The notes beneath the pieces are model-generated. The model did no database searches. It saw only the letters and a program-made list of their open reading frames with translations, and was not told the origin of the DNA. Shown in pieces: positions 17,605 to 31,880 of a stretch of 64,000 nucleotides of DNA. The DNA comes from Clostridia bacterium (GTDB lineage Bacteria; Bacillota; Clostridia; TANB77; CAG-508), in assembly GCA_017410505.1 (NCBI GenBank), contig JAFQQR010000027.1, forward strand, positions 31,461 through 95,460, given 5' to 3'. The position numbers and the translations under genes are program-made. Numbering within the stretch: the stretch's first letter is position 1; every line of letters starts with the position of its first letter.

Positions 17605-18063
17605 ATGAAAAAAATAATTGCAAGTTTATTATTTATAATTATGTCAATTCCAGTATATTCGTTCGGACATGATTCAACTAGCTCATACATATGGTCAACT
17701 GATATAGATTCAATAGCAGTTAATTCTTCAGATATACTTGAAACAAACTCAGAAATTGAAAATAACAACTCCTTAAATTTAGAAAGTGGTTCAGCAATAT
17801 TAATTGAACAATCAACAGGTCAAGTACTTTATTCTCATAACGCACATGAACAATTATGTCCAGCATCAGTAACAAAAATAATGAGTATTCTATTGATAAT
17901 GGAGCAAATTGATAATGGTTCTCTATCTTACTCAGACACTATTAGTTGTTCTGAAACCGCACGTTCTATGGGTGGTTCTCAAATATGGCTAGACCCAAGA
18001 GAAACCTTAACAGTTGATGAAATGCTAAAAGCTATTTGTGTTGTATCAGCAAATGATTGTAAT
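17605..18063 (+). pseudogene. dacF: D-alanyl-D-alanine carboxypeptidase (PBP5/DacF-DacB-like), 5' portion only; interrupted by an inserted element
   Basis: It has a signal peptide, the SxxK active site (PASVTKIM) and the SxN motif region ..AICVVSANDC. After that, the reading frame diverges into element sequence. The ATG at 17605 has a GGAGGT RBS. Confidence 0.8.
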
Positions 18064-18117: not shown

Positions 18118-19704
18118 TCACTTTTTGCAGGAAACAATTTTAGATGGTTTTTTTTCAAATTTATAATATATATGAATATAATTTTCATACACTTCTATTT
18201 TATCAATCAATTCACTTATGTCTTCATTAGATAGAATATCTTTATTTAGATTTTTTAAGATTTCTTTAACTTTCTTTATTTTCGCTATATTTTCATTACT
18301 ATTCAATTTTTCTTTTTCATTCTCTAAATTTTTTATAATTTCTCTTATGTCTTTTCTTTTTTGAGTTAATTCTTTATATAACTTTTTATAATTTTCTTCT
18401 AAAATGCTTTCTTGTAGTCTATCATTATATAGTTTTGTAATTTTGAATCTTAATAAGCCTAATTCTTTATTTAATTCTTTTAATTGAATATTTATTTTTT
18501 TAACTTCTATATCATTATATTTTTTCATAAGACTCGTATTTAAATTACTCTTTTTTAAGAATTTAGCAAATTCCTTTTCTATATCTTTAATAATTAAACT
18601 TTCTAAATCTTCATATTTATATAAGATATTATTTGAACATAAATATGAAGATTCATTTCTGGAAGGACAATGAACATTTATAAAATTTCTTGACTTTCTT
18701 TTTGCCATCCTTTTTTTACACTTACCACAATACATATATTTGGAAAATTTAGCATCTATCCCTTCTTTTCCACTAGCTGTTTTTCCAAATTTATTGTTAT
18801 CATGAATTTTATTATAAATTTCTTCAGTGATAATAGGTTCATGTGTCTTTTCAGTCGTTATTTGTTCACTTCTTTTTACATAAATTCTTTTTTTACTTTT
18901 ATAACTAATATTTTGTGTTTTTCCTCTCAGACATTTTCCTGTATATACTTCATTAGCTAATATTCTTGTAATTATTGATCTTGTCCAGACTTTTTTTGTC
19001 CTATTTTCTAGTCCTTTTACTTTTAAGTATTCTGCTGGAGTAATAATTTCTTCTTTATTAAATAAATCTGCTATTTGTTTTGCTGTTTTTCCTTCTAATG
19101 TTAATTTAAAAATTCTTTTGACATTTATACTAGCTACTTCGTCTATAATTAATTTTCCTTGATTATCTGGATCTTTCATGTAACCATATGGAGCTACATT
19201 ACAACTATAATATCCATCAAGCATCTTCTTTCTTTTACTTCTTTTGACTCCCTTAGATGTTTCTTTACAAAATAATTCATTAAAAACACCTTTTATTGGT
19301 GCAAATTCATTTGCTATTTTATCTTCAAAATTGTCTACTCCGTCTAAAATAGCAATATATCTAATATTATTGTTAGGAAATAATTTTTCTATATATTCTC
19401 CCGCTTCAATATAATTTCTTGCAAATCTAGCTAAGTTTTTTGTAATTACTAAATCTATTTCATTTATTTTTAATTCTTGAATCATTTTTTTAAAACCTGG
19501 TCTATCAAATGTAGCTCCTGAAACTCCATCATCTACATATTCATAATATTTTTCATAATTAAAATTCTTTTTTATATAGTCGAGGATAATTGCTCTTTGA
19601 TTAGAAATGCTTTCACTTTCTTCAGTATCACCATCATCTTTACTTAGTCTTAAATATATTGCAACATTACGAACTGATGACTTTTCTAGTCTTTGGATTA
19701 TCAT
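18118..19704 (-). CDS. Large serine recombinase (resolvase N-terminal domain plus recombinase, zinc-ribbon and coiled-coil regions)
   Basis: VAIYLRLSKDDGDTEESESISNQR...YVDDGVSGATFDRPGFKKM...VITKNLARFARN is the catalytic serine region. 528 aa. It stops 55 bp from the dac junction. Confidence 0.9.
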   Translation of the reverse strand: MIIQRLEKSSVRNVAIYLRLSKDDGDTEESESISNQRAIILDYIKKNFNYEKYYEYVDDGVSGATFDRPGFKKMIQELKINEIDLVITKNLARFARNYIEAGEYIEKLFPNNNIRYIAILDGVDNFEDKIANEFAPIKGVFNELFCKETSKGVKRSKRKKMLDGYYSCNVAPYGYMKDPDNQGKLIIDEVASINVKRIFKLTLEGKTAKQIADLFNKEEIITPAEYLKVKGLENRTKKVWTRSIITRILANEVYTGKCLRGKTQNISYKSKKRIYVKRSEQITTEKTHEPIITEEIYNKIHDNNKFGKTASGKEGIDAKFSKYMYCGKCKKRMAKRKSRNFINVHCPSRNESSYLCSNNILYKYEDLESLIIKDIEKEFAKFLKKSNLNTSLMKKYNDIEVKKINIQLKELNKELGLLRFKITKLYNDRLQESILEENYKKLYKELTQKRKDIREIIKNLENEKEKLNSNENIAKIKKVKEILKNLNKDILSNEDISELIDKIEVYENYIHIYYKFEKKPSKIVSCKK

Positions 19705-19711
19705 AATTGAA

Positions 19712-21325
19712 CTATCCTCCTATACAATTTAACTCATAAAAATTAAAGTGAATTAGTACATTTTTATCCTTATCTATTTCAATTTTATTAACTAATTGTT
19801 GTACATCTTCTTTTTTTAGCTCATTTTTATTAGCTATCTTTTCAATTACATTTTGTATTTTATCTTCCATTTTTTTATCATCATATTTTTTATCAAATTC
19901 TTTGATTTCTTCTTGTGTAATTTCTTTTAATTTTTCTAGTTTATGTCTTTCTTTTATCATATTTTCTGAAAAACATATATAATCTTGTTCTTCTATTAAT
20001 CCGCCCAATTTATCATTATATAATGTAGAAATCTTTTTGTTTAAAATATTTAATTGAGTATTGATTTGTTCTATCTTTTCTTCTAATTTCCCTTTGTTAT
20101 TTTGAGATTTTATCAAATTCTCTAATAAGTGTTTATTATTAAAAACATTTGACGTTATATATTCTCTAAATATATTTGATATTTTATTTAATATTTTTTC
20201 CTCCAATCTATCATAATTCACATATTGTCTATAACATATTTTGTTAGTTACTTCTCTTGTTGCTGTACTACAAATAATATATCTTCTAATTGTTACTTTA
20301 TCTTTGTATTTGTCTTTCTTTTTAACAATTTGTAGCTTATTCTGACAATGATAACAATATAGTAACGATTTTAGTAATGGATCTTCTTCTTTTATTTTTT
20401 CTCCTATATATTTTTTAAACAAGGATTGAACCATATTCCATGTTTCTATATCAATAATGGCTGGATGATGATTTTCAGTAATAGTATGTTGGCTTTCAGG
20501 TAATGTAATCATTTTCTTGCTTTTATAACTAATCTTTTTTCTTTTATTTTGAACAACTGTACCTATATATATTGGATTTGTTAAAATTCTTTTTATTGTT
20601 GTATGTCTCCAAATATTAGTAGTATTTGTTATATTGTTTACTACTCCTGTCATGTTCATGGATAAACCTGGCGTAACTACTTTTTCTTTGTTTAATAATT
20701 GTGCAATTTGATATGTTCCTTTTCCTCCAATAAACTCTTTAAATATTTTCCTTACTATATCTGCAGTCACTTCATTAATCTTTAGATTCCCTGCTTTATC
20801 TATTTTTGTATATCCAAATGGTGCATAACTTGTATAATAGAAGCCTTCTTGTTTTTTTCTATTTTTAGTTTTTTTTATGTTTTTAGATGTTTCTTTAGCA
20901 TAAAAATCATTCATTATATTTTTAAACGCAACTGTATCACAGTTCTTATCCAAATATGTATCCACATCATCTAATATCGCAATGTAACGAATTTCGTTTT
21001 CTGGAAAAAATGTTTCAATATATCTCCCTGTTTCTATGTAATCTCTTCCTAATCTTGCAAGGTTTTTTGTGATTACCATATTTACTTTTCTAGTTTCTAT
21101 ATCTTTAATCATTCTTTTGAAATTTGGTCTATTAAAATTAGTTCCACTATATCCATCATCAATATATTCATCATAAATGTTGTAATTATTTTCTTTCACA
21201 AATTCTTTTAATATTTTTCTTTGATTCGTTATACTTTCACTTTCCTCCTTATCTCCATCATCTTTACTTAATCTCATGTATAAAGCTACCGTATAACTTT
21301 TATTATCAAAGTTACTCGCTTCCAA
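19712..21325 (-). CDS. Large serine recombinase, second tandem copy
   Basis: VALYMRLSKDDGDKEESESITNQR...YIDDGYSGTNFNRPNFKRM...VITKNLARLGRDY. 537 aa. Confidence 0.9.
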   Translation of the reverse strand: MEASNFDNKSYTVALYMRLSKDDGDKEESESITNQRKILKEFVKENNYNIYDEYIDDGYSGTNFNRPNFKRMIKDIETRKVNMVITKNLARLGRDYIETGRYIETFFPENEIRYIAILDDVDTYLDKNCDTVAFKNIMNDFYAKETSKNIKKTKNRKKQEGFYYTSYAPFGYTKIDKAGNLKINEVTADIVRKIFKEFIGGKGTYQIAQLLNKEKVVTPGLSMNMTGVVNNITNTTNIWRHTTIKRILTNPIYIGTVVQNKRKKISYKSKKMITLPESQHTITENHHPAIIDIETWNMVQSLFKKYIGEKIKEEDPLLKSLLYCYHCQNKLQIVKKKDKYKDKVTIRRYIICSTATREVTNKICYRQYVNYDRLEEKILNKISNIFREYITSNVFNNKHLLENLIKSQNNKGKLEEKIEQINTQLNILNKKISTLYNDKLGGLIEEQDYICFSENMIKERHKLEKLKEITQEEIKEFDKKYDDKKMEDKIQNVIEKIANKNELKKEDVQQLVNKIEIDKDKNVLIHFNFYELNCIGG

Positions 21326-21715: not shown

Positions 21716-22687
21716 TTAATTATCTATGCCATATTGTTTTAATAGCCATTTTAAAGGTTCTTCTCCATCTTTTACTTCCTCTACTCTAGATAATAAATCA
21801 TTATACACATCTTTATTTTTTTTGTATAAATATGTAACCATTAGCTTTCTGTCATCTTTTTTCCCATTATGGATTCTTTTATGACAATTCGGACATAAAT
21901 TAATAATGTTCTTCGGATTATCTATTATTTCCTTTGGAAATTTTTTATCTTTTCTTCCATTACACTGTTCTATCAAATGGTGTGCTTCATAATAATTCAT
22001 TCCATTTTCTTTTTGAAATGTATTATGGTTTGCATCTTTTAAGCCTTTGCAATTTTCTAAAGTACATTTAGACATTTTATTCATATCCTCTGCTAATTGT
22101 TCAAGACTATAATTTTTATATTTTTTCGAATTACAAGCTTTCTCCAAGTCTTCTATTAATTTTCTTTGATAATACTCTTCTAACTTATTATCGTTATTTT
22201 TTTGTAATAAATCTTCTTTTAAATGCTGTTTTCCCTGCAAATTATTTATACCATATTTATTGAATAAAGCTTCTTGTGAAAATTTTTCTTTATCACTATT
22301 TACACATAGTGCATTTTCGAATTTTAGTCTTATTGCTGGAATTTTATCTATTTCTCCTTTTAACATTTTTTCTTCTTCCTCAGGAGTTTCACAGTAAAGA
22401 CAATCTTTCTCTAAGACTCTACATTTAATTAAAATTCTATTAATTCTATCAGGCAAATTCGTGTAATAAATATATACTATATCATCTTCTTCTACTTTTA
22501 AATCTCTTTTTACTTTACCATTTTTCCATAAAATTCCTTCATAATCTTTACCTTTATCTTCATTAAGTAATTTATCAAAATCAAACTCTTCAAAATTACC
22601 TAAAATCAGATGATGTTTATAATGTTCTTTTTTACCTTTTTTTTCAGTTTCGAATTTTGCTTTACTTATTTTTTTTATATCACTCAT
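21716..22687 (-). CDS. HNH endonuclease with a tentative N-terminal PUA/EVE-like domain; candidate modification-dependent (type IV-like) restriction enzyme
   Basis: C-terminal HNH: YEAHHLIEQ...NIINLCPNCHKRIHNG. The N-terminal region GILWKNGKVKRDLKVEEDDIVYIYYTNLPDRINRILIKCRV resembles the PUA/EVE fold pattern. No search was possible. Confidence 0.55.
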   Translation of the reverse strand: MSDIKKISKAKFETEKKGKKEHYKHHLILGNFEEFDFDKLLNEDKGKDYEGILWKNGKVKRDLKVEEDDIVYIYYTNLPDRINRILIKCRVLEKDCLYCETPEEEEKMLKGEIDKIPAIRLKFENALCVNSDKEKFSQEALFNKYGINNLQGKQHLKEDLLQKNNDNKLEEYYQRKLIEDLEKACNSKKYKNYSLEQLAEDMNKMSKCTLENCKGLKDANHNTFQKENGMNYYEAHHLIEQCNGRKDKKFPKEIIDNPKNIINLCPNCHKRIHNGKKDDRKLMVTYLYKKNKDVYNDLLSRVEEVKDGEEPLKWLLKQYGIDN

Positions 22688-22710: not shown

Positions 22711-22783
22711 ATTTTAAATATTTATCTCTATTTTAAATATTTATCTCTATTTTAAATATTTATCTCTATTTTAAATATTTATT
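22711..22783. repeat. 19-bp direct tandem repeat ATTTTAAATATTTATCTCT, 3 full copies plus 1 partial, between the WYL gene 3' end and the HNH gene start
   Basis: Read directly from the sequence. The copies are contiguous with no spacers, so this is not CRISPR. Confidence 0.85.
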
Positions 22784-23758
22784 ACTTGCATCCTCTATTA
22801 TTTTAATTATTTCACTTCTTAGATTTATAGGTTTTTTTACTTCTACTAGATCTAAATTTCTCATAGCCCATAGTTTAAATCCAAAAGGATTTACTTTAAG
22901 CTTCATTTTAAAACTATCTTTATTGATTGGTGCTATTTCTACATTTTTGCCAAATTTCTCAATTACTTCTCCTAACAAATATTCATTGCATTCCGCTTCT
23001 ATTTCTACCTCATCACCACTAAATACCTCTACAGATGTATCTGCATATTGTTCTATATCCTTTTCAGATTTACTTATTTTTATTATCTCTGCTAGTTCTT
23101 TTAAATTTTTTATTCTATCTAGTCTATAATGATAAAACTCTTTATTTCCATCTTTTATTGCTAACATGTAGAATTGCTGTTTATCATATATTATAGCATA
23201 AGGAGAAACTACAGGGGTACTTACAATTTGTTTTTCCACTCTATCTCCTACTATGCAGTATTTCCAATATTCAAATTTAACTTTATTTTTATTCATTATG
23301 CTATTTGAAATATCTTCAATGTTTTTTATAACTTCAACATTATTTGTTCTTCCTTTTGGAGAATATACTCTATAATTTTTAATCTTTTCATTTTCATATA
23401 CATTTTGTAAGTTCTTACATTTTCTTATTATTCCTTTGGCCATTCTCTGTTCGATGAATGTAGAATAGCTAAATGTATCAATAATAGCTCTTATCTCTCC
23501 TGGTTCAAAATCTGTTTCTGGATCATTGCTTATGTAATACCCTATTTTGTTATCATTATATGTGCTAATGTCATATCCAAATTTTTGTTGCAAAAGATTA
23601 ATATTTCTTCTTATTGTTCTTGGATCAATATCTTCTCCATATTCTTCTTTGATTTTTTCTTTAAGTTCTGATATTGATAGTTTATGTTCTTCATCACTGT
23701 ATTTTTTTAATACATTTAATATGTATAATATGTTTCCATTTTTTTCGTATAAATCCAT
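22766..23758 (-). CDS. WYL domain-containing transcriptional regulator (HTH-WYL, BrxR/CapW-like)
   Basis: The N-terminal wHTH is YILNVLKKYSDEEHKLSISELKEKIKEEYGEDIDPRTIRRNINLLQ. A central WYL-like region and a C-terminal extension follow. 330 aa. Confidence 0.7.
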   Translation of the reverse strand: MDLYEKNGNILYILNVLKKYSDEEHKLSISELKEKIKEEYGEDIDPRTIRRNINLLQQKFGYDISTYNDNKIGYYISNDPETDFEPGEIRAIIDTFSYSTFIEQRMAKGIIRKCKNLQNVYENEKIKNYRVYSPKGRTNNVEVIKNIEDISNSIMNKNKVKFEYWKYCIVGDRVEKQIVSTPVVSPYAIIYDKQQFYMLAIKDGNKEFYHYRLDRIKNLKELAEIIKISKSEKDIEQYADTSVEVFSGDEVEIEAECNEYLLGEVIEKFGKNVEIAPINKDSFKMKLKVNPFGFKLWAMRNLDLVEVKKPINLRSEIIKIIEDASNKYLK

Positions 23759-23780: not shown

Positions 23781-24797
23781 TTAAAATAAATAAAATATTT
23801 TTAACTTTTCTTTAAGTATATTTAAAACTACATTATCAGATTCTTTACTAATAAGAAATTCATATAACTCATTTCTCGCGATTGGAATTATTTTGTTATC
23901 TTTTTCATCTATACATCCATACCCATCTCCTTTCAATCCTGAAAATAAATATATTTTTTCAAATTTATTTTTATCCTTTGCATCATTAAGATAGTCATTA
24001 TACTTAACAATGTTTTTATTTTTCACTTGGCATGTAATGTGTTTATTTGTATCAGTTTTATTAACTAAATCAAATTCATATTTAATTTCATTTTTTTTAC
24101 ATTGTGATGGATATAAAACATAATCTTTATGTTTTTCAATTATATAAGCATATACTAAATCTTCTAAATCAATAGAAGATAATGTACTTGTAAAATTATC
24201 TAAATTTATTTTAATATACGATTTTTTCATTGTATTGTGATATAAATTATATATGAAATGTTTTATTATAGCATTATCATCTGAGTTTGTGGCTATCCTT
24301 TGTATAGTAGAATGTCTTCTTTGTGACATTCTGCCTATAATATGTCCTGGAAGATTATTTTTATTAAATTTTTTCCATTCTTCAACTTTACAATACCAAC
24401 TAAATCTTGAAATAAATTCTATATTACATGGTTCTGCTTTTTCACTTACTTTTCCAATATAATAATTTCCATCTAATAGTCTTGTTATTACATAATCACC
24501 AATTTCTATATTTAGAAAATCTCTTAGTGCAGAATCAGCACTTTTATTAAAAAATTTTTTATATAATTCTCTTATTTTATTTTTATCTTTATTGAGTTTT
24601 ATAAATTCTTTTGCCTTTTTTTGAATATCAAGAAACTTATTATTATCACAATAATTCCATCCCATACCAAATACATTTTGCATATAACATTTTTGTTGAA
24701 ATTCGCTTATTTCATTCATGGATACAGTATTGTTAAATGGTTTTATAAATGTTATCCAATAATTTTTATTTTTATCATAATTTATATTTTCTCTCAT
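23781..24797 (-). CDS. Hypothetical protein with a possible C-terminal PD-(D/E)xK nuclease motif
   Basis: 338 aa. ...EDLVYAYIIEKHKDYVLYP...YEFDLVNK...ITCQVKNK has a D...(E/Q)xK-like arrangement. Weak. Confidence 0.35.
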   Translation of the reverse strand: MRENINYDKNKNYWITFIKPFNNTVSMNEISEFQQKCYMQNVFGMGWNYCDNNKFLDIQKKAKEFIKLNKDKNKIRELYKKFFNKSADSALRDFLNIEIGDYVITRLLDGNYYIGKVSEKAEPCNIEFISRFSWYCKVEEWKKFNKNNLPGHIIGRMSQRRHSTIQRIATNSDDNAIIKHFIYNLYHNTMKKSYIKINLDNFTSTLSSIDLEDLVYAYIIEKHKDYVLYPSQCKKNEIKYEFDLVNKTDTNKHITCQVKNKNIVKYNDYLNDAKDKNKFEKIYLFSGLKGDGYGCIDEKDNKIIPIARNELYEFLISKESDNVVLNILKEKLKIFYLF

Positions 24798-24987: not shown

Positions 24988-26505
24988 TTATTTTGCAATC
25001 TCTTTCAATCTCTCCCAAACTTTAACCATAGCATAAGTATCTAACTTGCAATAAACTAACAATCCATTTCTTAGTTGTTCTTGCTCTTCTTTAGATTTTC
25101 CTTTTAAACTCAGAAATGTCTCAGATGCCTCTCCTCCATTATGTACAACTGGCAAATTATTATAGTCAAGTTCTGGATCATTTGGATATAATGCCGGTAA
25201 TACTTTCTTTATTGATGCTGAACCTTGCATTTCTTTCATATAAAACTGTCTCCTTTTGAATGGTGGTAAGAAATCAACCATATTACTATTTATTCTTAAC
25301 AATTCATTTTTCAGATCTGGATATAACTCTGCAAGTTCATTTATTCTTGAATGTTCAAATCCTTTATTATAAACTATAACGCTTCCATTTTCAGGTATGT
25401 CTTTAATCATGTTTTCTGCAAAATGTCTTAGAAAATTTTTATCATCTACCTCTGCTAAAAATTCTTTATGCTGTAGTTCTGCATCTTCTTTTTTAATTAT
25501 ATGAAGTGAATATTGAAAAGGTAGTTGTTGATACGGTTTAGTGTTATCATATTCTGGAATAGCTAATTGAAATGTTTCAAAATCTATGAAATATAAAGGA
25601 TATTTTAGCGAATTTATCAATTCTCTTATAGGTTCAATTTCTATTTTAGGTTCACGATTATTTATTTCAAAATCTATTTGTTCTAAATAAGTTTCATTTA
25701 GATTCTCATGTTGCAAATCTTCAAAAGAAATCTTTCCCTCATAATATTTTTCAAACTTTTTATCTGTATGCATTCCACCTTTTATATCAAATACATTTGG
25801 CTTAGGTAAGTCTTTGGTACAATATTCCCAGTATTCACAACCATACGGTTTTGTACATTGCATACCTATCACTTCTTTTGGTTCATTGTTTTCATCATGT
25901 GTATTCATATATTCATTTATCTGAATAATTCTATCTTTTATTTCTTTTTGTTTTAATACTGCAATTTCAGATATATCTTTAATATTAAATAATTTATCTA
26001 GCTCTAATTCTCCATGCTTTACATATTGATTATTTATATAAACTATACTTACTCTTTTAACAAGATATCCTAGATTACTTAGAACATAATATTGATATGC
26101 TGCATCATCCAAATAAATATCATGTACTTCTGTCGAGCTTTTTACTTCATATATTTCTACACCATCTTCTGTATTTTTCAAAATATCAACACTGCAAAAA
26201 TTATGGTTATATTCAAATGAAGCCTCAGTTATAATATTAGGCACTTTTTTTAGTGCCTCTTTTGTATCTGAAATCATTTTTGATAAATCACTATTAAATT
26301 CAATATTAACATATTCTCCAAATAGTCCTCTAGCTAATTCTCCAACCATAGTTCCGTTCTTAAAAACAGAATCTTTTGCAGATTGTACTTTTTCTTCTTG
26401 TTTATATTTATCCATCCATAATATCTTTTTGCATTGTATTGATTTGCAATATCTTGATTTTGATAAATAAACATTACAAACTATTTTTTCATCAGCCTTA
26501 TCCAT
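24988..26505 (-). CDS. Two-domain nuclease-like protein: N-terminal Cas4/RecB-like PD-(D/E)xK domain with Cys cluster, plus C-terminal DEDD-type 3'-5' exonuclease-like domain (DUF2779-like)
   Basis: The N-terminus is YLSKSRYCKSIQCKKILW. The ExK motif is IYEVKSS. The Cys triad is QCTKPYGCEYWEYC (C-x5-C-x5-C). The C-terminal half carries YFIDFETFQ (Exo I-like D-x-E). Confidence 0.5.
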   Translation of the reverse strand: MDKADEKIVCNVYLSKSRYCKSIQCKKILWMDKYKQEEKVQSAKDSVFKNGTMVGELARGLFGEYVNIEFNSDLSKMISDTKEALKKVPNIITEASFEYNHNFCSVDILKNTEDGVEIYEVKSSTEVHDIYLDDAAYQYYVLSNLGYLVKRVSIVYINNQYVKHGELELDKLFNIKDISEIAVLKQKEIKDRIIQINEYMNTHDENNEPKEVIGMQCTKPYGCEYWEYCTKDLPKPNVFDIKGGMHTDKKFEKYYEGKISFEDLQHENLNETYLEQIDFEINNREPKIEIEPIRELINSLKYPLYFIDFETFQLAIPEYDNTKPYQQLPFQYSLHIIKKEDAELQHKEFLAEVDDKNFLRHFAENMIKDIPENGSVIVYNKGFEHSRINELAELYPDLKNELLRINSNMVDFLPPFKRRQFYMKEMQGSASIKKVLPALYPNDPELDYNNLPVVHNGGEASETFLSLKGKSKEEQEQLRNGLLVYCKLDTYAMVKVWERLKEIAK

Positions 26506-26606: not shown

Positions 26607-27893
26607 TTAATTTCCTTGATAAGTAAATGTTCCTTCACTTTGTCTATATTGGAATGCATTATTTTTAGTAACATCAAAAGCAGTAAAATCATGTGTATAT
26701 GAATTACTTGGTTCATATGTACTATGATACTTTGTATAAGTGAATTTTATAATCCAAGATTTTGTTGTATCGTAGTCATCTCCGTTTGAAAAATAAACTT
26801 TATATGTCCCCTCAGCTGTATCTGTATATCTTTGATTATATACATTCTTCCAATTGCATATCCATGAGAAAGTTCCATCTTTGTTTATAGTATATGTTCC
26901 TCCTGCAGGAGAATCTTGTTGATCACATACATATTTTCCGTATTTTAGAGTATAATTTCCAACCTTTAATCCTTTAGCAGCTTCCTCCTCTGCCTTTCTT
27001 TTAGCTTCTTCTTCAGCTTTTTTTTGTTCTTCTTCTTGTTTTTTCTTTACTTCTTCTTCAGCTTTTTTAATTTCGTTTTGTTTATCAGTAATTTCTGTTT
27101 CTTTAGTTGCTACTTCTTGTTTTATATTTTCTGTTACTACTTGTTCTTTTGTTTTATAGTCTTTAACCTCTTCAGTTATACTGGCTTTTAACTCTTTGTC
27201 TGATAGATTTTCGTTATATTCCATTGTGTCTATATTTACATCTGTTTTTATAAATACTGTATCGAATTTCGAAATTGATAATTTATTTCCATCTACAGTA
27301 TCAACTGAAATTTCTTCACCTTTCTTAAATGTGTATTCTTTTTGTTCAGTTATTGTATCTTCTGCTTGACTTAAATTTGCTGTGTTTTCACTATTTAACT
27401 CATCACTTTTCATTTTTTCTAATTCTGTTATTCTCTCTGATATTTGTGTCTCTATTGGTTTATATATATCTTCTTCTTGGGTTTGTTTATGTAAATACCA
27501 ATCATATTGTTTTGTCTCAATATTATATAAAAATTCTGCATCTGTTGGTTCTAAGTTTATTATATTATTTACTTCTCCATCATTTATAAAATATATATCT
27601 GAATATTGTTTTTCTTCTTTTTCATATTTTACTATCATTATTGGGTTTTCAACCTCTTCTATATCTACAAATCCTATCTTTGAATTATTTTGAATATTAT
27701 TATTTTCTGAATTTTGAGTAGTATTGCTTTCATTATTTGTTTTTGATTCTTTTAAGAAATTATAATAAGTATTTGCCCATTCCTGTTCTATTGGTTTACT
27801 ATTTTCATAATGTTCATATGCGAAATATCCTCCTACTGATGCTATTATTATTACTACCATAATAAGTATAGCTATTAATATCTTCTTTTTCAC
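26607..27893 (-). CDS. Signal-anchored protein with a K/E-rich coiled-coil segment, hypothetical
   Basis: The N-terminus MKKKILIAILIMVVIIIASVGGYFAY is a TM anchor. The middle region is EEVKKKQEEEQKKAEEEAKRKAEEEAAK. Confidence 0.5.
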   Translation of the reverse strand: MKKKILIAILIMVVIIIASVGGYFAYEHYENSKPIEQEWANTYYNFLKESKTNNESNTTQNSENNNIQNNSKIGFVDIEEVENPIMIVKYEKEEKQYSDIYFINDGEVNNIINLEPTDAEFLYNIETKQYDWYLHKQTQEEDIYKPIETQISERITELEKMKSDELNSENTANLSQAEDTITEQKEYTFKKGEEISVDTVDGNKLSISKFDTVFIKTDVNIDTMEYNENLSDKELKASITEEVKDYKTKEQVVTENIKQEVATKETEITDKQNEIKKAEEEVKKKQEEEQKKAEEEAKRKAEEEAAKGLKVGNYTLKYGKYVCDQQDSPAGGTYTINKDGTFSWICNWKNVYNQRYTDTAEGTYKVYFSNGDDYDTTKSWIIKFTYTKYHSTYEPSNSYTHDFTAFDVTKNNAFQYRQSEGTFTYQGN

Positions 27894-27928
27894 TATTAAC
27901 TCCCCCTTTACATTTTTATTGATTTATA

Positions 27929-28336
27929 CTATTTTAATTTAGTTGCTTTAACGAATACAGGTTTATAACTTTCATAACTTACAGATACTGAATAATACTC
28001 TTCATTTTCTGTATCATAAATTAGTACATATGAAGCACCTACATTGATTAATTGTTCAGAATATCGTAGTGAACCAAACTGACTTTTGGAACTACTTGGA
28101 AGTTCAGTAAATTCTTGTCTAGAAGCATCTATAATTGTATATTTAGTATTATCTTTAAATGCTGATTCGATTGTCCTTACATGATACTCACTTGACTCTT
28201 CTTCTAACTTATCAATAACGGAATTTAATGTTTCTACCACATCTTTTTTCTTATTGATATTTCCACATCTTGTTATAATAAATAACATAACTATTAATAT
28301 TGCTATTATTCCTATTCCTAAAATTTTCTTTTTCAT
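27929..28336 (-). CDS. Small signal-anchored protein, hypothetical
   Basis: MKKKILGIGIIAILIVMLFIITRCG ... 135 aa. Confidence 0.45.
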   Translation of the reverse strand: MKKKILGIGIIAILIVMLFIITRCGNINKKKDVVETLNSVIDKLEEESSEYHVRTIESAFKDNTKYTIIDASRQEFTELPSSSKSQFGSLRYSEQLINVGASYVLIYDTENEEYYSVSVSYESYKPVFVKATKLK

Positions 28337-28396
28337 AAAAATTCCTCCTTAAAAATTTCTATCTGTGTTTTTAATTTCCTACATAATTATAACTAT

Positions 28397-30796
28397 CTAT
28401 TTTACTTTTGTTATATCTTGATAAGAAAAATTAATAACATTGTTAAAATATGCTCTTTCTTGCTCTTCTGTAATATCTGTTTTTTGTCCATTTGCATTCC
28501 AAACCATATGACTATCATATTCATATGTTCCGTCATAAACATTATAAGAACCTCTATCATGTCCTACTACTTTTGATTCTACAAGATTATTATTATTTAA
28601 TTTATAAAATCCATAAATTCCTGTAACAGTATTAGGTCTTGTTTCACTATATACAATTTCTTTTTCATTTTTTTCATAGCGAATTCCTGCATAATTATAT
28701 ATAAGTTTTACTTTAACAACAGTTTTACTCGATTGATTATAAGTATAAATTGCATCTGTTTTCCATTCTTCAGTAACTCCACCTGCTACGCAGTCGATTA
28801 TTAACTCAGGTATTCCATCTTTGTTTATGTCAAAAATACAATAACCCACATTTTGAAGTGTATTACTATTTAATCCTTGTAAATGTTCTTTATAATCATT
28901 TATATATTTTTGTTCTAAAATATATTTTTTATATGCTTTGATTACCTCCGAGTCTGTATCCACAGAAAGACTTCCTACCACGCCATTTTCTGTACCAGTA
29001 TTAACTTGAACATTTGAGTTATTTGAGTTACTTGAGCTACTCGAGTTATTAACAGTAGTACTATTTTGTTGAATATTTTGCTGTGTGTTCGTCGTATCTT
29101 GTTCTTTTTCATCATCTGTCCAATCAACTTCCGATTCAATTTTAAATACTGGATATTTTATTTCCTTTAAATCTACTTTGTACTCTGCTTTAAAAAATAA
29201 AGCATCGACCGAACAATCTAATTTAACTTTCAAATATATTCCTAGTTCAATCTTTGCAGATATACCAGAATCTATATCATTAGTTTCTTTAGTATATTTA
29301 AATTTAGCCGTTGCAAAGTATTCATTATATGCTCCAAATTCTAGCCCTACTCCAGCATGTGCTAAATCTTTATTTATTATACTTATTCCTCCATCTAAAC
29401 CTATTCCTATTTTTATTTCAGCTTTACCTACAACAGAAATTTCTTGTGAAGATGTTGTTTGGCTAGCATTTTGATATGCTTTTTTCTCATTCTTGTTCAT
29501 TACAAAACCTGCATGTTGTACTGTTTCTATTTGTCCTGTATATTTCAAATTTATTTGTAGTGATAATTGCGTTTGAAAATATATATCAAAATAAACATTT
29601 ATTCCTGGAATACCGGTTGGTACTTCAATTGCTCCAATATCTATTGAATTTTCGGAAACATCTGGTACTTCTTTTTGTAATTTTTGTACAATTTCTTGAA
29701 CGGATTTACTATATTCTTCATCACTGATATCTGATATTCCCTTTAAATATTCATTTCCAGATTCTAATTCTACTTCAATTTCAGTTTTTGTTTTTACAGC
29801 CATATCATAGTTCATAGAAAAATCTTTTTCGACATCTACAATATAATCAGTTGAAATTTTATATGATACTTTTATAACTAAATCATGTTGTTTTAGAGAA
29901 TCTAGTCCCAGTTTTTTTTCTCCATCTGCTTTAAATTTTAATTCAATCTCAATTCCTATCTCTTCTCCATCTGTTACTAAAGATATCTTAGGATCTTCTA
30001 CTGCAGCATATACTTCTGTTGCTAAAAATTTATACAGAGCAGATTCTTTTATACTCTTTTCAATTTCTACTTCTGCATTTTCATTTATTTTTAAATTATT
30101 AAAATCAACTTTGCCTTCTTTATATAAGTCCACACTATTATATATTTCCGATAATTCCGGTTTCACAACTGTTGCAATTTCTCCATCTATATTGGATATT
30201 TTATATGCATTATTAATATTATCTCCATCTTTAACCAAAATTACTTGTCCTTCTTTTAAATTTTCATTTTGGATTTTTAATTTTGTTTCATCTTCTATCT
30301 GAATATTTTTATTATCAACAGTAACTACATCATCTGCCATTTTATATTCTGATTTTTGATTTTCCTTAATTTTAAATTCAATCTTTTTAACTTCTTTTAA
30401 AACATCATCTGCAAAATTAGCAGTGTATAACTCTAATTGATATGTTTCACCCTTTGTGTATTTTTTATTTGCCTGTATATATTTCTTTCCATTGTATTCT
30501 ACAATGCTACTTTCAACTGTTTCATTATTGGAATTTGTAAGTTTATATGAATTTAAATCACCACCATCAATTGCGAATTTAATATCAGGTTCAGCCTTAG
30601 GAATATAATATGTTCCATCATCAAAAACAGCATAATATATGGCAGCATTTTGTGCATTATTGGTATTATTTTTACTTTTTAAATAAAAAAATACTCCTGA
30701 AGATGTTCCAATTGCTATAATTATTAAAAATAATATAAAAAATACAATTTTCGTACTTTTCATTTTTGAAATATTTTCTTTTTTCTTATTTTCCAT
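28397..30796 (-). CDS. Large signal-anchored extracytoplasmic protein, hypothetical
   Basis: 799 aa. The N-terminal TM anchor is followed by a long polar domain with an S/N-rich linker. Confidence 0.5.
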   Translation of the reverse strand: MENKKKENISKMKSTKIVFFILFLIIIAIGTSSGVFFYLKSKNNTNNAQNAAIYYAVFDDGTYYIPKAEPDIKFAIDGGDLNSYKLTNSNNETVESSIVEYNGKKYIQANKKYTKGETYQLELYTANFADDVLKEVKKIEFKIKENQKSEYKMADDVVTVDNKNIQIEDETKLKIQNENLKEGQVILVKDGDNINNAYKISNIDGEIATVVKPELSEIYNSVDLYKEGKVDFNNLKINENAEVEIEKSIKESALYKFLATEVYAAVEDPKISLVTDGEEIGIEIELKFKADGEKKLGLDSLKQHDLVIKVSYKISTDYIVDVEKDFSMNYDMAVKTKTEIEVELESGNEYLKGISDISDEEYSKSVQEIVQKLQKEVPDVSENSIDIGAIEVPTGIPGINVYFDIYFQTQLSLQINLKYTGQIETVQHAGFVMNKNEKKAYQNASQTTSSQEISVVGKAEIKIGIGLDGGISIINKDLAHAGVGLEFGAYNEYFATAKFKYTKETNDIDSGISAKIELGIYLKVKLDCSVDALFFKAEYKVDLKEIKYPVFKIESEVDWTDDEKEQDTTNTQQNIQQNSTTVNNSSSSSNSNNSNVQVNTGTENGVVGSLSVDTDSEVIKAYKKYILEQKYINDYKEHLQGLNSNTLQNVGYCIFDINKDGIPELIIDCVAGGVTEEWKTDAIYTYNQSSKTVVKVKLIYNYAGIRYEKNEKEIVYSETRPNTVTGIYGFYKLNNNNLVESKVVGHDRGSYNVYDGTYEYDSHMVWNANGQKTDITEEQERAYFNNVINFSYQDITKVK

Positions 30797-31090
30797 TTTT
30801 AATCTTATTCCTTCCCTGCTTCCGCTACCAATACGCCTATTGAAGTCACAAATCTTTAGTTCACAAAATCACATATAAAATATACATTTTAATTATTAAA
30901 TCTATGAGCAATTATCTCAAAAAAAATTTTATTCTTCGACATTTTCTCTTAAAATTTTCATTTTCAATTATTATATCAAAAAAAATTTTAAATGTATATA
31001 TTTAAAAAATTTATTTATAATTAATTACAACCTTATTATTTATTGCTATTACTATATTTCTTCAATTCCTGTAACTACTGAACGCTCTAA

Positions 31091-31880
31091 GACTGCGTAG
31101 TAGCTATGGCTGAACATATCGCAGGTTCAGAAGAAGCATTTGTTCAAATGATGAATGACAAAGCAAAAGAATTAGGTATGAATGACACGACATTTAAAAA
31201 TTGTCATGGCATCGACGAAGATGGTCATATTACATCTAGCTATGATATTGCTTTAATGTCTCGAGAACTTTTATCAAAACACCCTGATATTACAAAATAC
31301 ACAACAATATGGATGGATAGTTTAAGAGATGGCAAATCACAATTGGTTAATACTAATAAATTAATTAGAACATATAAAGGAATTACAGGATTAAAAACAG
31401 GATCAACTTCACTTGCATTATATAATTTATCAGCAAGTGCCACACGAAATGATTTATCTTTAATTGCAGTAATTATGAAAGCACCCTCTACTAAAGTAAG
31501 ATTTGAAGAAGCACAAAAATTACTCGATTATGGATTTAATAAATTCTCTTTTAAAAGTTTCGGAAATAAAGATGATGTGATTCAAACAGTTTCTGTAAAT
31601 AAAGGTGTAAAAAACAGTGTTGATATCATTTTAGAAGAAAATAGCGGTACTTTAATTGAAAAAGGTAAAGAAAGTCAAATTTCTCAATCTATTGAAATAA
31701 ATGACAATATTGAAGCACCTATAAAAAAAGGTGACAAACTTCGGTCAAGTAACTTTTTATTTAGATAACAGGGAGATTGCAAGCAGCAATTTAGTTGCCT
31801 CTAGTGATATTGATAAAATTAATTTATTTACTATGTCCAAAAGAGTTGTTTATAGTTGGATTGATTTATTACGAAGTTAG
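31091..31880 (+). pseudogene. dacF: D-alanyl-D-alanine carboxypeptidase, 3' portion (continuation of 17605-18063) with an extra +1 frameshift near 31742
   Basis: DCVVAMAEHIAGSEEAFVQMMNDKAKELGMNDTTFKNCHG..LKTGST continues the PBP5 fold. The frame 31106-31768 ends ..KKGDKLRSSNFLFR*. The +1 frame continues GQVTFYLDNREIASSNLVASSDIDKINLFTMSKRVVYSWIDLLRS*, which is the conserved PBP5 C-terminus, ending at 31880. Confidence 0.75.

What the first reader, a model, noticed from the sequence alone, without database searches (positions are those of the whole stretch)
24988..26505. Fusion of a Cas4/RecB-like Fe-S PD-(D/E)xK nuclease domain to a DEDD 3'-5' exonuclease-like domain
The N-terminal half has an ExK motif (YEVKSS) and a Cys cluster (C-x5-C-x5-C plus N-terminal Cys residues), as in Cas4/AddB nuclease domains. 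The C-terminal half carries YFIDFETFQ, the Exo I motif of DnaQ-like exonucleases. Two nuclease domains in one polypeptide, inside a defense-rich mobile element and with no neighbouring cas genes, is unusual. It may be a standalone defense or DNA-processing effector (DUF2779-like family).
Basis: inference. Interest (0 to 1): 0.6.

Follow-up and report, generated by a model that had tools for sequence, protein, structure and literature searches.

The report
Known Cas4-plus-exonuclease fusion protein (DUF2779)
The gene really does encode two different DNA-cutting domains in one protein, but this fusion defines a large, already described and experimentally untested bacterial family (DUF2779); the new lead is that it is often paired with a WYL regulator next to swappable anti-phage genes.

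Summary

- **N-terminal half:** a Cas4/RecB-type PD-(D/E)xK nuclease (D107, E120, K122). Its four-Cys set (C25, C217, C223, C229) is 96-100% conserved in 131 relatives of 35-56% identity. C20 is not conserved.
- **C-terminal half:** the Pfam DUF2779 domain (E 2.9e-45), an RNase H-fold DEDDy-type 3'-5' exonuclease (D308, E310, E384, Y485-x3-D489, each 99%).
- **Structure:** the AlphaFold model (pLDDT 96) matches Cas4 and MGME1 in the N-half, and DEDDh and PolB exonucleases in the C-half.

The fusion is not unusual. It is the family-defining architecture of PF11074 (over 8000 clusters at 50% identity, many phyla), noted in 2014 and analysed in 2026 for a quasi-essential mycoplasma gene. No biochemistry exists, and the protein matches no known defence-system model.

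Here the gene lies on a ~13 kb serine-recombinase element that splits a D-Ala-D-Ala carboxypeptidase gene.

New lead: in 36 of 97 loci DUF2779 is linked to a WYL regulator, and often to an AAA+ ATPase. In gut Clostridia the interval between DUF2779 and WYL holds different defence genes (PDC-S02 here).

The parts
24988..26505 (-). DUF2779-family gene (505 aa): Cas4-like Fe-S nuclease fused to a DEDDy-type exonuclease.
   Evidence: ORF. Pfam PF11074 E 2.9e-45. Full-length homologues. AlphaFold2 model pLDDT 96.1, pTM 0.90.
25801..26466 (-). N-terminal Cas4/RecB-type PD-(D/E)xK domain (about aa 14-235). Catalytic codons: D107 (26185-26187), E120 (26146-26148), K122 (26140-26142). Predicted 4Fe-4S ligands: C25 (26431-26433), C217 (25855-25857), C223 (25837-25839), C229 (25819-25821).
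   Evidence: Residue conservation. Cas_Cas4 Pfam hit in 47 of 82 relatives, best E 3.8e-11, though only E 0.9 for this protein itself. Foldseek matches Cas4 7mi4_A and 4r5q and MGME1 at probability 0.99-1.0. Many viral Cas4-like / PD-(D/E)XK proteins also match.
25606..25800 (-). Helical linker (about aa 236-300) between the two nuclease domains.
   Evidence: Secondary structure of the model: helices 247-255, 261-264, 271-282 and 290-298. Three of 82 relatives hit the DNA_pol_lambd_f fingers domain at E 1.9e-4, but the position of that hit was not checked.
24991..25605 (-). C-terminal DUF2779 / RNase H-fold DEDDy 3'-5' exonuclease-like domain (about aa 301-505). Exo I: D308 (25582-25584) and E310 (25576-25578). 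Exo II: E384 (25354-25356). Exo III: Y485 (25051-25053) and D489 (25039-25041). D411, K433 and C486 are also 98-99% conserved.
   Evidence: Pfam DUF2779 covers aa 305-431. Conservation. Domain-only model pLDDT 96.2. Foldseek: 3'hExo probability 0.95, TM 0.44/0.48, plus PolB exonuclease domains. RNase_H_2 hits in 26 of 82 relatives.
22766..23758 (-). HTH-WYL regulator (330 aa), the recurrent partner of DUF2779 genes.
   Evidence: Pfam WYL E 4.5e-9 and PADLOC WYL E 9e-21. Homologues lie beside or near DUF2779 in 36 of 97 loci, directly adjacent or overlapping on the same strand in Clostridia, Betaproteobacteria and Aliarcobacter.
23781..24797 (-). PDC-S02 candidate defence gene (338 aa), occupying the variable slot between DUF2779 and WYL.
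   Evidence: PADLOC PDC-S02 E 2.7e-35. Among the relatives it is found only in L087, at 38% identity. Other genomes carry different cargo at this position.
21716..22687 (-). HNH_2 endonuclease-like protein (323 aa), weakly similar to type IV restriction enzymes. It follows the WYL gene and is followed by the only predicted minus-strand terminator (21631-21605).
   Evidence: Pfam HNH_2 E 3e-5. PADLOC mREase_IV E 1.1e-5. Terminator scan.
18118..21325 (-). Two tandem large serine recombinase genes (18118-19704 and 19712-21325) at the left end of the element.
   Evidence: Resolvase, Recombinase and Zn_ribbon_recom domains in both.
17593..18062 (+). 5' part of the interrupted D-Ala-D-Ala carboxypeptidase gene (left junction around 18057-18062).
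   Evidence: Peptidase_S11 profile positions 8-109 of 239. The reading frame runs ...SANDC and then into unrelated sequence.
31088..31768 (+). 3' part of the same carboxypeptidase gene (right junction around 31088-31093).
   Evidence: Peptidase_S11 profile positions 111-238 plus PBP5_C. The frame reads *DCVVAMAEH..., continuing the SANDC of the left part.
26607..30796 (-). Three further cargo genes of unknown function: 428 aa (26607-27893, N-terminal hydrophobic segment and a Glu/Lys-rich stretch), 135 aa (27929-28336) and 799 aa (28397-30796).
   Evidence: No Pfam, PADLOC or PHROG match. The 799-aa protein has no PDB sequence match. None has a homologue in the related loci. None has a Walker A motif.

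Best explanation
The gene encodes a cytoplasmic, single-chain dual nuclease of the PF11074/DUF2779 family.

Shown by sequence and structure prediction:
- The N-terminal half has the Cas4/RecB PD-(D/E)xK fold. It keeps an intact D107...E120-x-K122 metal site and four conserved Cys (C25 plus C217-x5-C223-x5-C229), arranged as in the 4Fe-4S clusters of Cas4 and AddB.
- The C-terminal half has an RNase H fold with a complete DEDDy set: D308-x-E310, E384 in an N-x2-F-E Exo II motif, and Y485-x3-D489.

Inferred mechanism:
- The Cas4-like site attacks 5' ends or 5' flaps of single-stranded DNA.
- The DEDDy site removes nucleotides from 3' ends.
- One polypeptide can therefore shorten or destroy DNA with free ends or single-stranded regions in both polarities, without a helicase of its own.

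Inferred regulation:
- The gene is co-transcribed with a downstream WYL regulator.
- By analogy with CapW and DriD, that regulator would sense single-stranded DNA produced by damage or infection and set the level of the operon.
- The nuclease would be a stress- or infection-inducible enzyme that clears DNA ends and single-stranded DNA.

In this window the DUF2779-WYL pair, with a PDC-S02 gene between the two and an HNH gene after them, rides on a ~13 kb serine-recombinase element inserted in a D-Ala-D-Ala carboxypeptidase gene.
For: Family and architecture:
- Pfam DUF2779 E 2.9e-45.
- 150 best representatives of 35-56% identity, most aligning nearly end to end.

Catalytic and Cys conservation in 131 diverse sequences.

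Nuclease-family links:
- Cas_Cas4 hits in 47 of 82 relatives and RNase_H_2 hits in 26 of 82.
- Model pLDDT 96.
- Foldseek to Cas4 and MGME1 at probability ~1.0, and to DEDDh and PolB exonucleases at probability 0.8-0.95.
- Full-length matches to giant-virus Cas4 + YprB-like proteins at E 1e-13.
- Independent published HHpred results for a family member: Cas4 7MID 2e-6 and MrfB 8UN9 5e-7. RNHL clade F.17 classification.

Operon with WYL:
- Same strand, with gaps from -13 to +64 bp where the slot is empty (L003, L004, L006, L016, L084, L093, L100, L103).
- WYL is present in 36 of 97 loci across Clostridia, Negativicutes, Betaproteobacteria and Campylobacterota.
- No terminator is predicted between DUF2779 and the end of the HNH gene.

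WYL domains as ssDNA sensors: PMC11662680 and PMC10853764.
Against: - No member of the family has been assayed. Polarity, substrate (DNA or RNA) and Fe-S binding are all inferred.
- This protein itself scores only E 0.9 against Pfam Cas_Cas4.
- The fold matches for the C-terminal domain are weak numerically (Foldseek E ~0.03, TM ~0.45).
- HMM searches against PDB sequences found nothing.
- Exo II carries Glu where Asp is usual.
- About two thirds of DUF2779 loci show no WYL gene within the fetched flanks. In some relatives the gene sits among housekeeping genes (L095/L096). WYL control therefore cannot be general.
- The WYL protein has no detectable sequence match to solved WYL regulators, so the ssDNA-sensing analogy is unverified.
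- The promoter scan was not above background (84 sites found against 74 expected).
Confidence: 0.6

Rival explanations
1. Housekeeping DNA repair, recombination or replication nuclease. It would process ends or flaps as part of normal genome maintenance, for example standing in for AddAB, RecJ or flap-nuclease functions. Its position next to defence genes and on a mobile element would be incidental.
For: - The family is very large and mainly chromosomal. There is no full-length homologue in 50,697 phage records, and only 32 of 72,556 plasmids carry one, mostly non-mobilizable megaplasmids.
- Close relatives lie between core genes: rpoB/rpoC, rho, ftsH, sua5.
- The mycoplasma member is quasi-essential in JCVI-syn3.0, and its authors conclude that its role goes 'beyond bacterial immunity'.
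- A transposon mutant of a Mycoplasma bovis member was recovered in a growth screen.
- The N-terminal half structurally resembles MGME1, a genome-maintenance nuclease.
Against: - Immediate neighbourhoods are highly variable, with 136 Pfam families among 134 neighbours.
- They include many restriction, DRT, Gabija-like and PDC genes.
- In this window the gene is cargo of an integrative element.
- The repeated link to WYL regulators suggests conditional rather than constitutive use.
Confidence: 0.3
2. Dedicated anti-phage or anti-plasmid effector. Alone, or with the AAA+ ATPase and WYL partner, it would form an undescribed defence system that degrades invading linear or replicating DNA. The other defence genes then accumulate around it.
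For: - AAA+ | DUF2779 | WYL tight operons occur in Betaproteobacteria and Clostridia.
- The slots around WYL carry PDC-S02, Uzume, HEC-05/GmrSD, PDC-M27, PDC-S72 and LlaJI-type genes.
- PLD nucleases, NERD and helicases flank it on plasmids.
- BrxR/CapW-type WYL regulators are known to sit in defence islands.
- Cas4-family nucleases work with other defence proteins: ACE1 with Argonautes (PMC12094033) and UvrD-Cas4 fusions.
Against: - No PADLOC or PHROG model matches the protein.
- Most loci (Bacteroidota, Bacilli, Ignavibacteria and others) have neither partner.
- The window's copy has no AAA+ partner and no Walker A protein in the element.
- Guilt by association was not tested against a genome-wide background.
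Confidence: 0.3
3. A 'solo Cas4' that serves CRISPR adaptation in trans. It would trim prespacers at both ends, combining the roles of Cas4 and of DEDDh trimmers.
For: Cas4 and DEDDh exonucleases are the two known prespacer trimmers (PMC10284694, listed). The N-terminal domain resembles the Cas4 of a Cas4-Cas1-Cas2 complex (7mi4).
Against: - No cas gene lies within 10 kb on either side by precomputed Pfam.
- No CRISPR-like array exists in the 64 kb window.
- No cas1 or cas2 was seen beside DUF2779 among the immediate neighbours of 76 loci.
- The family occurs in mollicutes as a quasi-essential gene.
Confidence: 0.03
4. RNA-directed enzyme. The DEDD-type domain, and perhaps the PD-(D/E)xK domain, would act on RNA (maturation, turnover or nanoRNA clearance) rather than on DNA.
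For: The best PDB fold matches of the C-terminal domain are RNA exonucleases: 3'hExo/ERI1, ERI2, Pan2 and oligoribonuclease. The M. bovis mutant was recovered in the same screen as nanoRNase and c-di-AMP phosphodiesterase mutants.
Against: Pfam links run to YprB/RNase_H_2 and DNA polymerase B exonuclease domains. Viral hits include PolB. The Tyr form of Exo III is, from general knowledge of the DEDD superfamily, typical of DNA polymerase proofreading domains. The Cas4/RecB/MGME1 partner domain is DNA-specific in characterised members.
Confidence: 0.07

Closest known systems
PF11074 / DUF2779 family, including MMSYN1_0389 of JCVI-syn3.0 (PMC13621843) and RNase H-like superfamily family F.17 (PMC3985635)
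   Same: Same Pfam family (154 bits). Same two-domain order, Cas4-like then DEDD-like. Same conserved D/E/K and D-E-(D/E)-D plus Tyr residues. The fusion itself was noted in 2014 and dissected by HHpred in 2026.
   Different: The mollicute branch is longer (NCBIfam UU173_fam profile of 650 positions; this protein matches only positions 311-648 at 96 bits against a cut-off of 225). It keeps only two of the four Cys. This protein and nearly all non-mollicute relatives keep all four. The mollicute gene is quasi-essential and chromosomal, whereas this copy is cargo of an integrative element next to a WYL regulator.
Cas4 (CRISPR-associated; PDB 7MI4 Cas4-Cas1 of Geobacter, 4R5Q Pcal_0546, 4IC1 SSO0001)
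   Same: PD-(D/E)xK fold, D...ExK site, and one N-terminal plus three C-terminal Cys for a 4Fe-4S cluster. Foldseek probability 0.99-1.0. Pfam Cas_Cas4 is hit by 47 of 82 relatives.
   Different: No cas1, cas2 or CRISPR array nearby. The first Cys spacing is usually x5 rather than x2. It is fused to an exonuclease. This sequence is below the Cas_Cas4 Pfam threshold.
Cas4 + YprB/RNase_H_2 (PF13482) fusions: COG2251 group (RNHL family F.13) and giant-virus 'YprB RNase H-like' proteins
   Same: Same two-domain logic. The full-length structural superposition with the Cafeteria roenbergensis virus and Faunusvirus proteins gives E 1e-13 and TM (normalised to the query) 0.54-0.63 over about 580-620 columns. 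Majorek et al. list both F.13 and F.17 as carrying DUF83.
   Different: The C-terminal domain belongs to a different Pfam family (PF13482 versus PF11074). Sequence identity is only 10-13%. COG2251 proteins often carry extra AAA domains in the same chain, whereas here an AAA+ ATPase, when present, is a separate neighbouring gene.
DEDDh/DEDDy 3'-5' exonucleases (3'hExo/ERI1 1W0H, MrfB 8UN9, PolB proofreading domains, DnaQ)
   Same: RNase H fold with Exo I D-x-E, an Exo II acidic residue after N-x2-F, and Exo III Y-x3-D. Published HHpred to MrfB is 5e-7 for a family member.
   Different: Very divergent: TM ~0.45, Foldseek E ~0.03, and no HMM-level hit to any PDB sequence. Exo II has Glu384 instead of Asp. 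There are extra invariant residues (D411, K433, C486).
MGME1 (mitochondrial genome maintenance exonuclease 1)
   Same: It is among the top structural neighbours of the N-terminal half (probability 1.0, TM normalised to the target ~0.5). From general knowledge, it is a PD-(D/E)xK enzyme that degrades single-stranded DNA and flaps and helps remove linear DNA together with a polymerase 3'-5' exonuclease. That is the same pair of activities joined here in one chain.
   Different: Eukaryotic and organellar, with no Fe-S cluster and no fused exonuclease. Sequence identity is 12-15%.
WYL-regulated defence islands (BrxR, CapW) and the WYL ssDNA sensor DriD
   Same: An HTH-WYL protein is encoded in the same operon or island as variable defence genes.
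   Different: The BrxR family is almost confined to Proteobacteria (6 of 607 Firmicutes genomes). There the regulator usually leads the operon, whereas here it follows DUF2779. No sequence match to solved WYL regulators was found. No published link between WYL and DUF2779 was found: 7 papers mention DUF2779 and, in the passages of three of them that were read, none mentions WYL.

Membership tests
PF11074 / DUF2779 family | Pfam PF11074 match above the gathering score. | tested here: met
   154 bits against a cut-off of 23.3, E 2.9e-45, aa 305-431 covering profile positions 1-126 of 126.
PF11074 / DUF2779 family | Full-length collinearity with family members (N-terminal Cas4-like half plus C-terminal DUF2779 half). 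| tested here: met
   Among the best 150 representatives, most single stretches cover about query 12-505 in proteins of about 490-510 aa. All 82 aligned members hit DUF2779 and 47 also hit Cas_Cas4.
Cas4 / RecB-type PD-(D/E)xK nucleases | Catalytic D...(D/E)xK motif conserved. | tested here: met
   D107 98%, E120 89% and K122 96% in 131 sequences.
Cas4 / RecB-type PD-(D/E)xK nucleases | Four Cys (one N-terminal, three C-terminal) that can hold a 4Fe-4S cluster. | tested here: met
   C25 96% (the rest gaps); C217, C223 and C229 100%. Spacings are x5/x5 in 98 and x2/x5 in 17 of 131. Actual cluster binding cannot be tested here.
Cas4 / RecB-type PD-(D/E)xK nucleases | Profile match to Pfam Cas_Cas4 (PF01930) above threshold. 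| tested here: not met
   This protein scores E 0.9, 10 bits against a cut-off of 22.7. Relatives do match: 47 of 82 at E<=0.1, best 3.8e-11. The link is therefore transitive.
Cas4 / RecB-type PD-(D/E)xK nucleases | Fold similarity to solved Cas4 structures. | tested here: met
   Foldseek: 7mi4_A E 1.7e-3, probability 1.0; 4r5q probability 0.99; MGME1 probability 1.0.
CRISPR-associated Cas4 (adaptation module) | Located with cas1/cas2 or a CRISPR array. | tested here: not met
   No cas Pfam domain within 10 kb on either side, no CRISPR-like repeat array in the window, and none among the neighbours of 76 loci.
DEDD (DnaQ-like) 3'-5' exonuclease superfamily | RNase H-like fold. | tested here: met
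DEDD (DnaQ-like) 3'-5' exonuclease superfamily | Exo I (D-x-E), Exo II (acidic residue) and Exo III ((H/Y)-x3-4-D) motifs. | tested here: met
   D308 and E310 99%. E384 99% within N380-x2-F383-E384 (Glu in place of the usual Asp). Y485 and D489 99%, which gives the DEDDy subtype.
DEDD (DnaQ-like) 3'-5' exonuclease superfamily | Profile match to a curated exonuclease family (RNase_T, DNA_pol_A_exo1, RNase_H_2). | tested here: inconclusive
   None for this protein at E<=1. Among relatives, RNase_H_2 is hit by 26 of 82 (best 2.5e-7), DNA_pol_B_2 by 3 and DNA_pol_A_exo1 by 1. Published HHpred to MrfB is 5e-7 for a mollicute member.
DEDD superfamily and Cas4 family | Metal-dependent nuclease activity with the expected polarity. 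| not testable with these tools
   No biochemical data exist for any PF11074 member in the searchable literature.
Known anti-phage defence systems (PADLOC-DB 2.0) and phage protein families (PHROGs) | Match to a defence-system or phage-family model. | tested here: not met
   No PADLOC hit and no PHROG hit for the protein. Its neighbours do hit: PDC-S02, WYL and mREase_IV-like.
NCBIfam UU173 family (mollicute DUF2779 branch) | Score above the curated cut-off. | tested here: not met
   96.4 bits against a cut-off of 225; only the C-terminal two thirds align.
Large-serine-recombinase integrative element (context) | Recombinase genes at one end and a target gene split into two complementary parts. 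| tested here: met
   Two LSR genes. Peptidase_S11 profile positions 8-109 on the left and 111-238 on the right, with ...SANDC | DCVVAMAEH... continuity. An empty site in a relative was not looked for.

The most novel reading that the evidence does not exclude
DUF2779 would be the nuclease component of an undescribed, cross-phylum module: AAA+ ATPase | DUF2779 dual nuclease | WYL regulator. The module would respond to single-stranded DNA or DNA damage.

In gut Clostridia it would also act as the conserved frame of a defence-gene hotspot. The interval between DUF2779 and WYL, and the interval after WYL, take up interchangeable systems: PDC-S02, Uzume, GmrSD/HEC-05/06, PDC-M27, PDC-S72 and LlaJI-type.

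The window's copy would be a reduced version of this module, without the ATPase, that has been captured by a serine-recombinase element.
Probability: 0.35. Interest if true: 0.65.

Novelty: new member of a known kind. Interest (0 to 1): 0.35.

Why it matters
The fusion itself adds little. It is one more member of a very large family whose architecture is already published.

The family does matter. It is widespread, present even in a minimal synthetic cell, probably carries two active nucleases and an Fe-S cluster, and has never been assayed.

The contexts collected here give concrete, testable handles that the published descriptions lack:
- A recurrent operon with a WYL regulator, which is likely to sense single-stranded DNA.
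- A recurrent operon with an AAA+ ATPase.
- A variable slot that collects anti-phage genes.

If these associations are functional, they would tie DUF2779 to inducible processing of DNA ends during damage or infection. They would also provide a marker for finding new defence genes in gut Clostridia.

Tried and rejected
- **PDB sequence searches:** phmmer with the protein, and hmmsearch with the full-length and C-terminal profiles, gave nothing or only coiled-coil noise.
- **hhalign against E. coli DnaQ:** I use it only as a hint for the Exo II register.
- **PADLOC and PHROGs:** no hit for the protein.
- **Promoter scan:** not above the shuffled background, so no promoter is claimed.
- **Structure prediction with locus-derived fragments:** I repeated it with fragments of the allowed proteins.
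- **Other element proteins against PDB sequences:** the WYL protein, PDC-S02 and the 799-aa protein gave nothing.
- **BLAST clustering of neighbours:** this alone suggested that the WYL link was confined to Clostridia. Annotated plasmid records and iterated HMMs corrected that.
- **Prophage origin, considered and rejected:** there are no phage structural or PHROG matches.
- **CRISPR-associated role, considered and rejected:** there are no cas genes and no array.
- **p799 or p428 as the missing AAA+ partner, considered and rejected:** neither has a Walker A motif or any homology to it.
Full report
**1. Observation**

The ORF is exactly as reported: 24988-26505, minus strand, ATG start, 505 aa. 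A purine-rich ribosome-binding site lies upstream. The window is AT-rich (24-35% G+C), and its genes run almost uniformly on the minus strand.

All quoted motifs are present:
- Y119-EVK-SS.
- C217-x5-C223-x5-C229.
- C20 and C25.
- Y305-FIDFETFQ.

The exact protein is on record on a 159.6 kb gut-metagenome contig and on two shorter assemblies. The nearest genome-collection relatives are uncultured Clostridia MAGs.

**2. What the protein is**

Pfam places aa 305-431 in DUF2779/PF11074 (E 2.9e-45). Cas_Cas4 is only a sub-threshold hint for this sequence (E 0.9). NCBIfam gives a partial, sub-threshold match to the mollicute UU173 family.

The family is very large:
- The word-indexed search reached its 8000-candidate limit, with 7949 hits.
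- The exhaustive search of 1.84 billion representatives found 8030 clusters at E<=1e-3 and 2280 at E<=1e-30.
- The best 150 (35-56% identity) mostly align from about residue 12 to residue 505.

The two-domain arrangement is therefore the family's standard architecture, not a one-off fusion.

I aligned the query with 130 of these representatives:

| Region | Residue | Conservation |
|---|---|---|
| N-terminal half | C25 | 96% (the rest are gaps) |
| N-terminal half | C217, C223, C229 | 100% |
| N-terminal half | C20 | not conserved |
| N-terminal half | D107 / E120 / K122 | 98% / 89% / 96% |
| N-terminal half | Q138 / Y161 | 92% / 98% |
| C-terminal half | D308, E310, E384, D411, K433, Y485, D489 | 99% each |
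| C-terminal half | C486 | 98% |

The second Cys spacing is always five residues. The first is five in 98 sequences and two, the canonical Cas4/AddB C-x2-C-x5-C, in 17.

Scanning all 82 members of a diverse alignment against Pfam gave DUF2779 in 82, Cas_Cas4 in 47 (best 3.8e-11), RNase_H_2/PF13482 in 26 (best 2.5e-7), PDDEXK_1 in 3, DNA_pol_B_2 in 3 and DNA_pol_A_exo1 in 1.

**3. Structure**

AlphaFold2 with that alignment gave a confident model (pLDDT 96.1, pTM 0.90).

Foldseek against the PDB:
- The N-terminal half matches the Cas4 part of the Geobacter Cas4-Cas1-Cas2 complex (7mi4, probability 1.0), Cas4 Pcal_0546 (4r5q, 0.99) and human MGME1 (1.0).
- The C-terminal half matches the DEDDh nuclease 3'hExo (0.91).

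I also modelled the C-terminal domain alone (pLDDT 96.2). It again gave 3'hExo first (probability 0.95, TM 0.44/0.48), followed by ERI2, Maelstrom, the exonuclease domain of ASFV PolB, Pan2 and oligoribonuclease. The E-values are only about 0.03, so this is a divergent member of the RNase H-fold exonucleases.

Against predicted viral structures, the whole protein superposes on giant-virus 'YprB RNase H-like' proteins over both domains (E 1e-13, TM normalised to the query 0.54-0.63). It also matches many phage Cas4-like / PD-(D/E)XK proteins and PolB.

**4. Comparison with the literature**

- Majorek et al. 2014 placed PF11074 in the 3'-5' exonuclease clade of the RNase H-like superfamily (family F.17). 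They noted that it co-occurs with DUF83, i.e. Cas4.
[quoted passage not shown] Its HHpred matches were to Cas4 (7MID, 2e-6) and MrfB (8UN9, 5e-7). All acidic residues were conserved, a Tyr stood in the DEDDh histidine position, and only two of the four Cys were kept.
- No biochemical study of any member was found.
- The Cas4 phylogenomics paper does not mention this fusion.

This protein is a typical member of the family that keeps all four Cys.

**5. Context in the window**

A D-Ala-D-Ala carboxypeptidase gene is split. Peptidase_S11 profile positions 8-109 lie at 17593 to about 18060. Positions 111-238, plus PBP5_C, lie at about 31090-31768. The reading frame continues across the break as ...SANDC | DCVVAMAEH....

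The ~13 kb between the two parts carries these genes, all on the minus strand, listed here by increasing coordinate, which is the reverse of their transcription order:
- two large serine recombinases
- an HNH_2 protein weakly similar to type IV restriction enzymes
- the HTH-WYL regulator
- a PDC-S02 candidate defence gene
- the DUF2779 gene
- three genes with no match in any library used

There are no phage-like genes, no cas genes and no CRISPR array. 'Inside a mobile element with defence-type genes' is therefore correct.

**6. Context in relatives**

Across 80 species-representative genome loci, the immediate neighbours are very heterogeneous: 136 Pfam families among 134 proteins. The family is essentially absent from phage genomes and rare on plasmids.

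Two partners recur. I searched 1169 ORFs from 101 loci with iterated HMMs. Of the 97 loci that carry DUF2779, a WYL gene is present in 36, a specific AAA+ ATPase family in 26, and both in 19. Some of these loci are near-duplicates, and many have truncated flanks.

- **Empty slot:** where nothing lies between them, DUF2779 and WYL are on the same strand and separated by -13 to +64 bp (L003, L004, L006, L016, L084, L093).
- **Betaproteobacteria:** the order is ATPase | DUF2779 | WYL, with gaps of -48 to +10 bp (Rhodoferax, Diaphorobacter).
- **Aliarcobacter:** PD-(D/E)XK | DUF2779 | WYL.
- **Close relatives (71-77% identity):** the pair sits among core genes (rpoB/rpoC, rho, dnaE) with no recombinase nearby.

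The window's element lacks the ATPase, and none of its proteins has a Walker A motif.

**7. The variable slot**

In the gut Clostridia clade, the interval between DUF2779 and WYL is filled differently in different genomes:

| Locus | Content of the DUF2779-WYL interval |
|---|---|
| This window | PDC-S02 |
| L087 | a 426-aa gene plus a PDC-S02 homologue |
| L085/L086 | UzuA (E 2.5e-42) |
| L090/L091 | HEC-05/GmrSD (E 1.8e-129) |
| L008 | a PDC-M27-like set with a PLD nuclease and a helicase |
| L088, L092, L035, L021 | unknown genes |
| Several others | empty |

The interval after WYL holds, in different loci: PDC-S72, UzuA, GmrSD/HEC-06, a GmrSD_N protein, LlaJI-type enzymes or, in this window, the HNH protein.

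This is the pattern of a defence-gene hotspot framed by conserved genes. WYL regulators of the BrxR/CapW type are known to accompany defence islands, but they were found almost only in Proteobacteria. CapW and DriD bind single-stranded DNA. I found no paper that links WYL and DUF2779.

**8. Mechanism**

Shown: two intact nuclease active sites and a conserved four-Cys set in one confidently folded chain, and operon-like linkage to a WYL regulator in a substantial minority of genomes.

Inferred:
- The Cas4-like site acts on 5' ends or flaps, and the DEDDy site acts on 3' ends.
- The enzyme can therefore shorten or clear DNA with free ends or single-stranded regions.
- Its expression is tuned by a WYL protein that senses single-stranded DNA.

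Whether the biological purpose is repair, defence or both is open. I give the enzymatic assignment about 0.85. I give the 'WYL-controlled DNA-end-clearing nuclease' role about 0.35-0.4, with housekeeping repair and dedicated defence as near-equal rivals. A CRISPR-adaptation role and an RNA-only role are unlikely.

**9. Verdict**

The feature is a new member of a known, uncharacterised kind, so the finding as stated is of modest interest.

The part worth following up is the AAA+ | DUF2779 | WYL association and the variable defence slot. That part appears to be undescribed and can be tested directly.

Noticed in passing
window 22710-22785 (minus strand): Three perfect copies and one imperfect copy of a 19-bp tandem unit, GAGATAAATATTTAAAATA. 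The first copy is the last codons and stop of the WYL gene, and the array ends 22 bp before the HNH start codon. Each unit contains the palindrome AAATATTT. There are 4 matches against 0.93 expected. It may be an operator array or a slippage duplication.
   Followed up: partly
window 17593-18062 and 31088-31768 (+), element about 18.06-31.09 kb: A D-Ala-D-Ala carboxypeptidase (Peptidase_S11) gene is split by a ~13 kb insertion with two tandem large serine recombinases at one end. From general knowledge, this resembles the recombinase-excised intervening elements in sporulation genes of Firmicutes. I did not test whether this carboxypeptidase is sporulation-specific, or whether an empty site exists.
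   Followed up: partly
L085:11506-12465, L090:8515-10230, L008:4056-10686, L087:3607-5952, L003:10681-11739, L094:8699-11780, L093:8255-11093; window 23781-24797 and 21716-22687: The intervals between DUF2779 and WYL, and after WYL, hold different defence or candidate defence genes in different gut Clostridia: UzuA, HEC-05/06 GmrSD, PDC-M27, PDC-S02, PDC-S72, LlaJI-type and HNH. This is a hotspot framed by conserved genes.
   Followed up: yes
L100:1845-6462, L103:1733-6467, L085:8308-13481, L093:3930-8142, L016:5713-10552, L098: An AAA+ ATPase family (520-730 aa; AAA plus AAA_lid_6 in the Clostridial forms) recurs with DUF2779 and WYL across Betaproteobacteria, Negativicutes, Clostridia, Campylobacterota, Nitrospirota and others: 26 of 97 loci, 19 of them with WYL too. 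The window's element has no such gene.
   Followed up: yes
L084:9574-10008, L087:1721-2116, L092:4042-4587, L094:5592-6008, L008:4056-4499: A small ORF (131-181 aa), DnaJ_C-like in four of the five loci, overlaps the start of the DUF2779 gene by 8 bp in several of the closest relatives. In L008 it lies just after the gene. The window has an unrelated 428-aa gene upstream instead.
   Followed up: no
window 26607-30796 (minus strand): Three element genes (428, 135 and 799 aa) have no match in Pfam, PADLOC or PHROGs and no homologue in any related locus. The 799-aa protein also has no PDB sequence match. They are unexplained cargo that could include unknown defence or element-maintenance functions.
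   Followed up: partly
L005 (Methanobrevibacter sp. MAG, JADLKP010000008.1): A DUF2779 homologue 63% identical to the query sits on a contig binned to an archaeal methanogen, closer than most bacterial relatives. This is either recent transfer from gut Clostridia or a binning error.
   Followed up: no
BFVD hits E3T4R0, A0A3G4ZWN9, A0A5J6VIM9, A0A3G5AGZ9: Giant viruses (Cafeteria roenbergensis virus, Faunusvirus, a Megaviridae sample, Sylvanvirus) encode proteins that superpose on both domains of the model at once (E 1e-13 to 4e-9). The Cas4 + RNase H-like exonuclease pairing therefore also exists in eukaryotic viruses.
   Followed up: no
window 25048-25050 (C486) and family alignment: C486, next to the catalytic Tyr in the motif Y-C-x-L-D-T, is 98% conserved. 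D411 and K433 are 99% conserved. None of these belongs to the classical DEDD motifs, and their roles are unknown.
   Followed up: no
window 24860-24964 (minus strand): A 34-codon ORF between DUF2779 and PDC-S02 is called as a gene on all three contigs that carry this exact protein. There is no evidence for or against its expression.
   Followed up: no
L097:4914-6002 and 5 of 134 immediate neighbours: A PD-(D/E)XK protein of the PDDEXK_4 / PDC-S26 type lies directly beside DUF2779 in Aliarcobacter and several other loci. It is a third, less frequent partner.
   Followed up: partly
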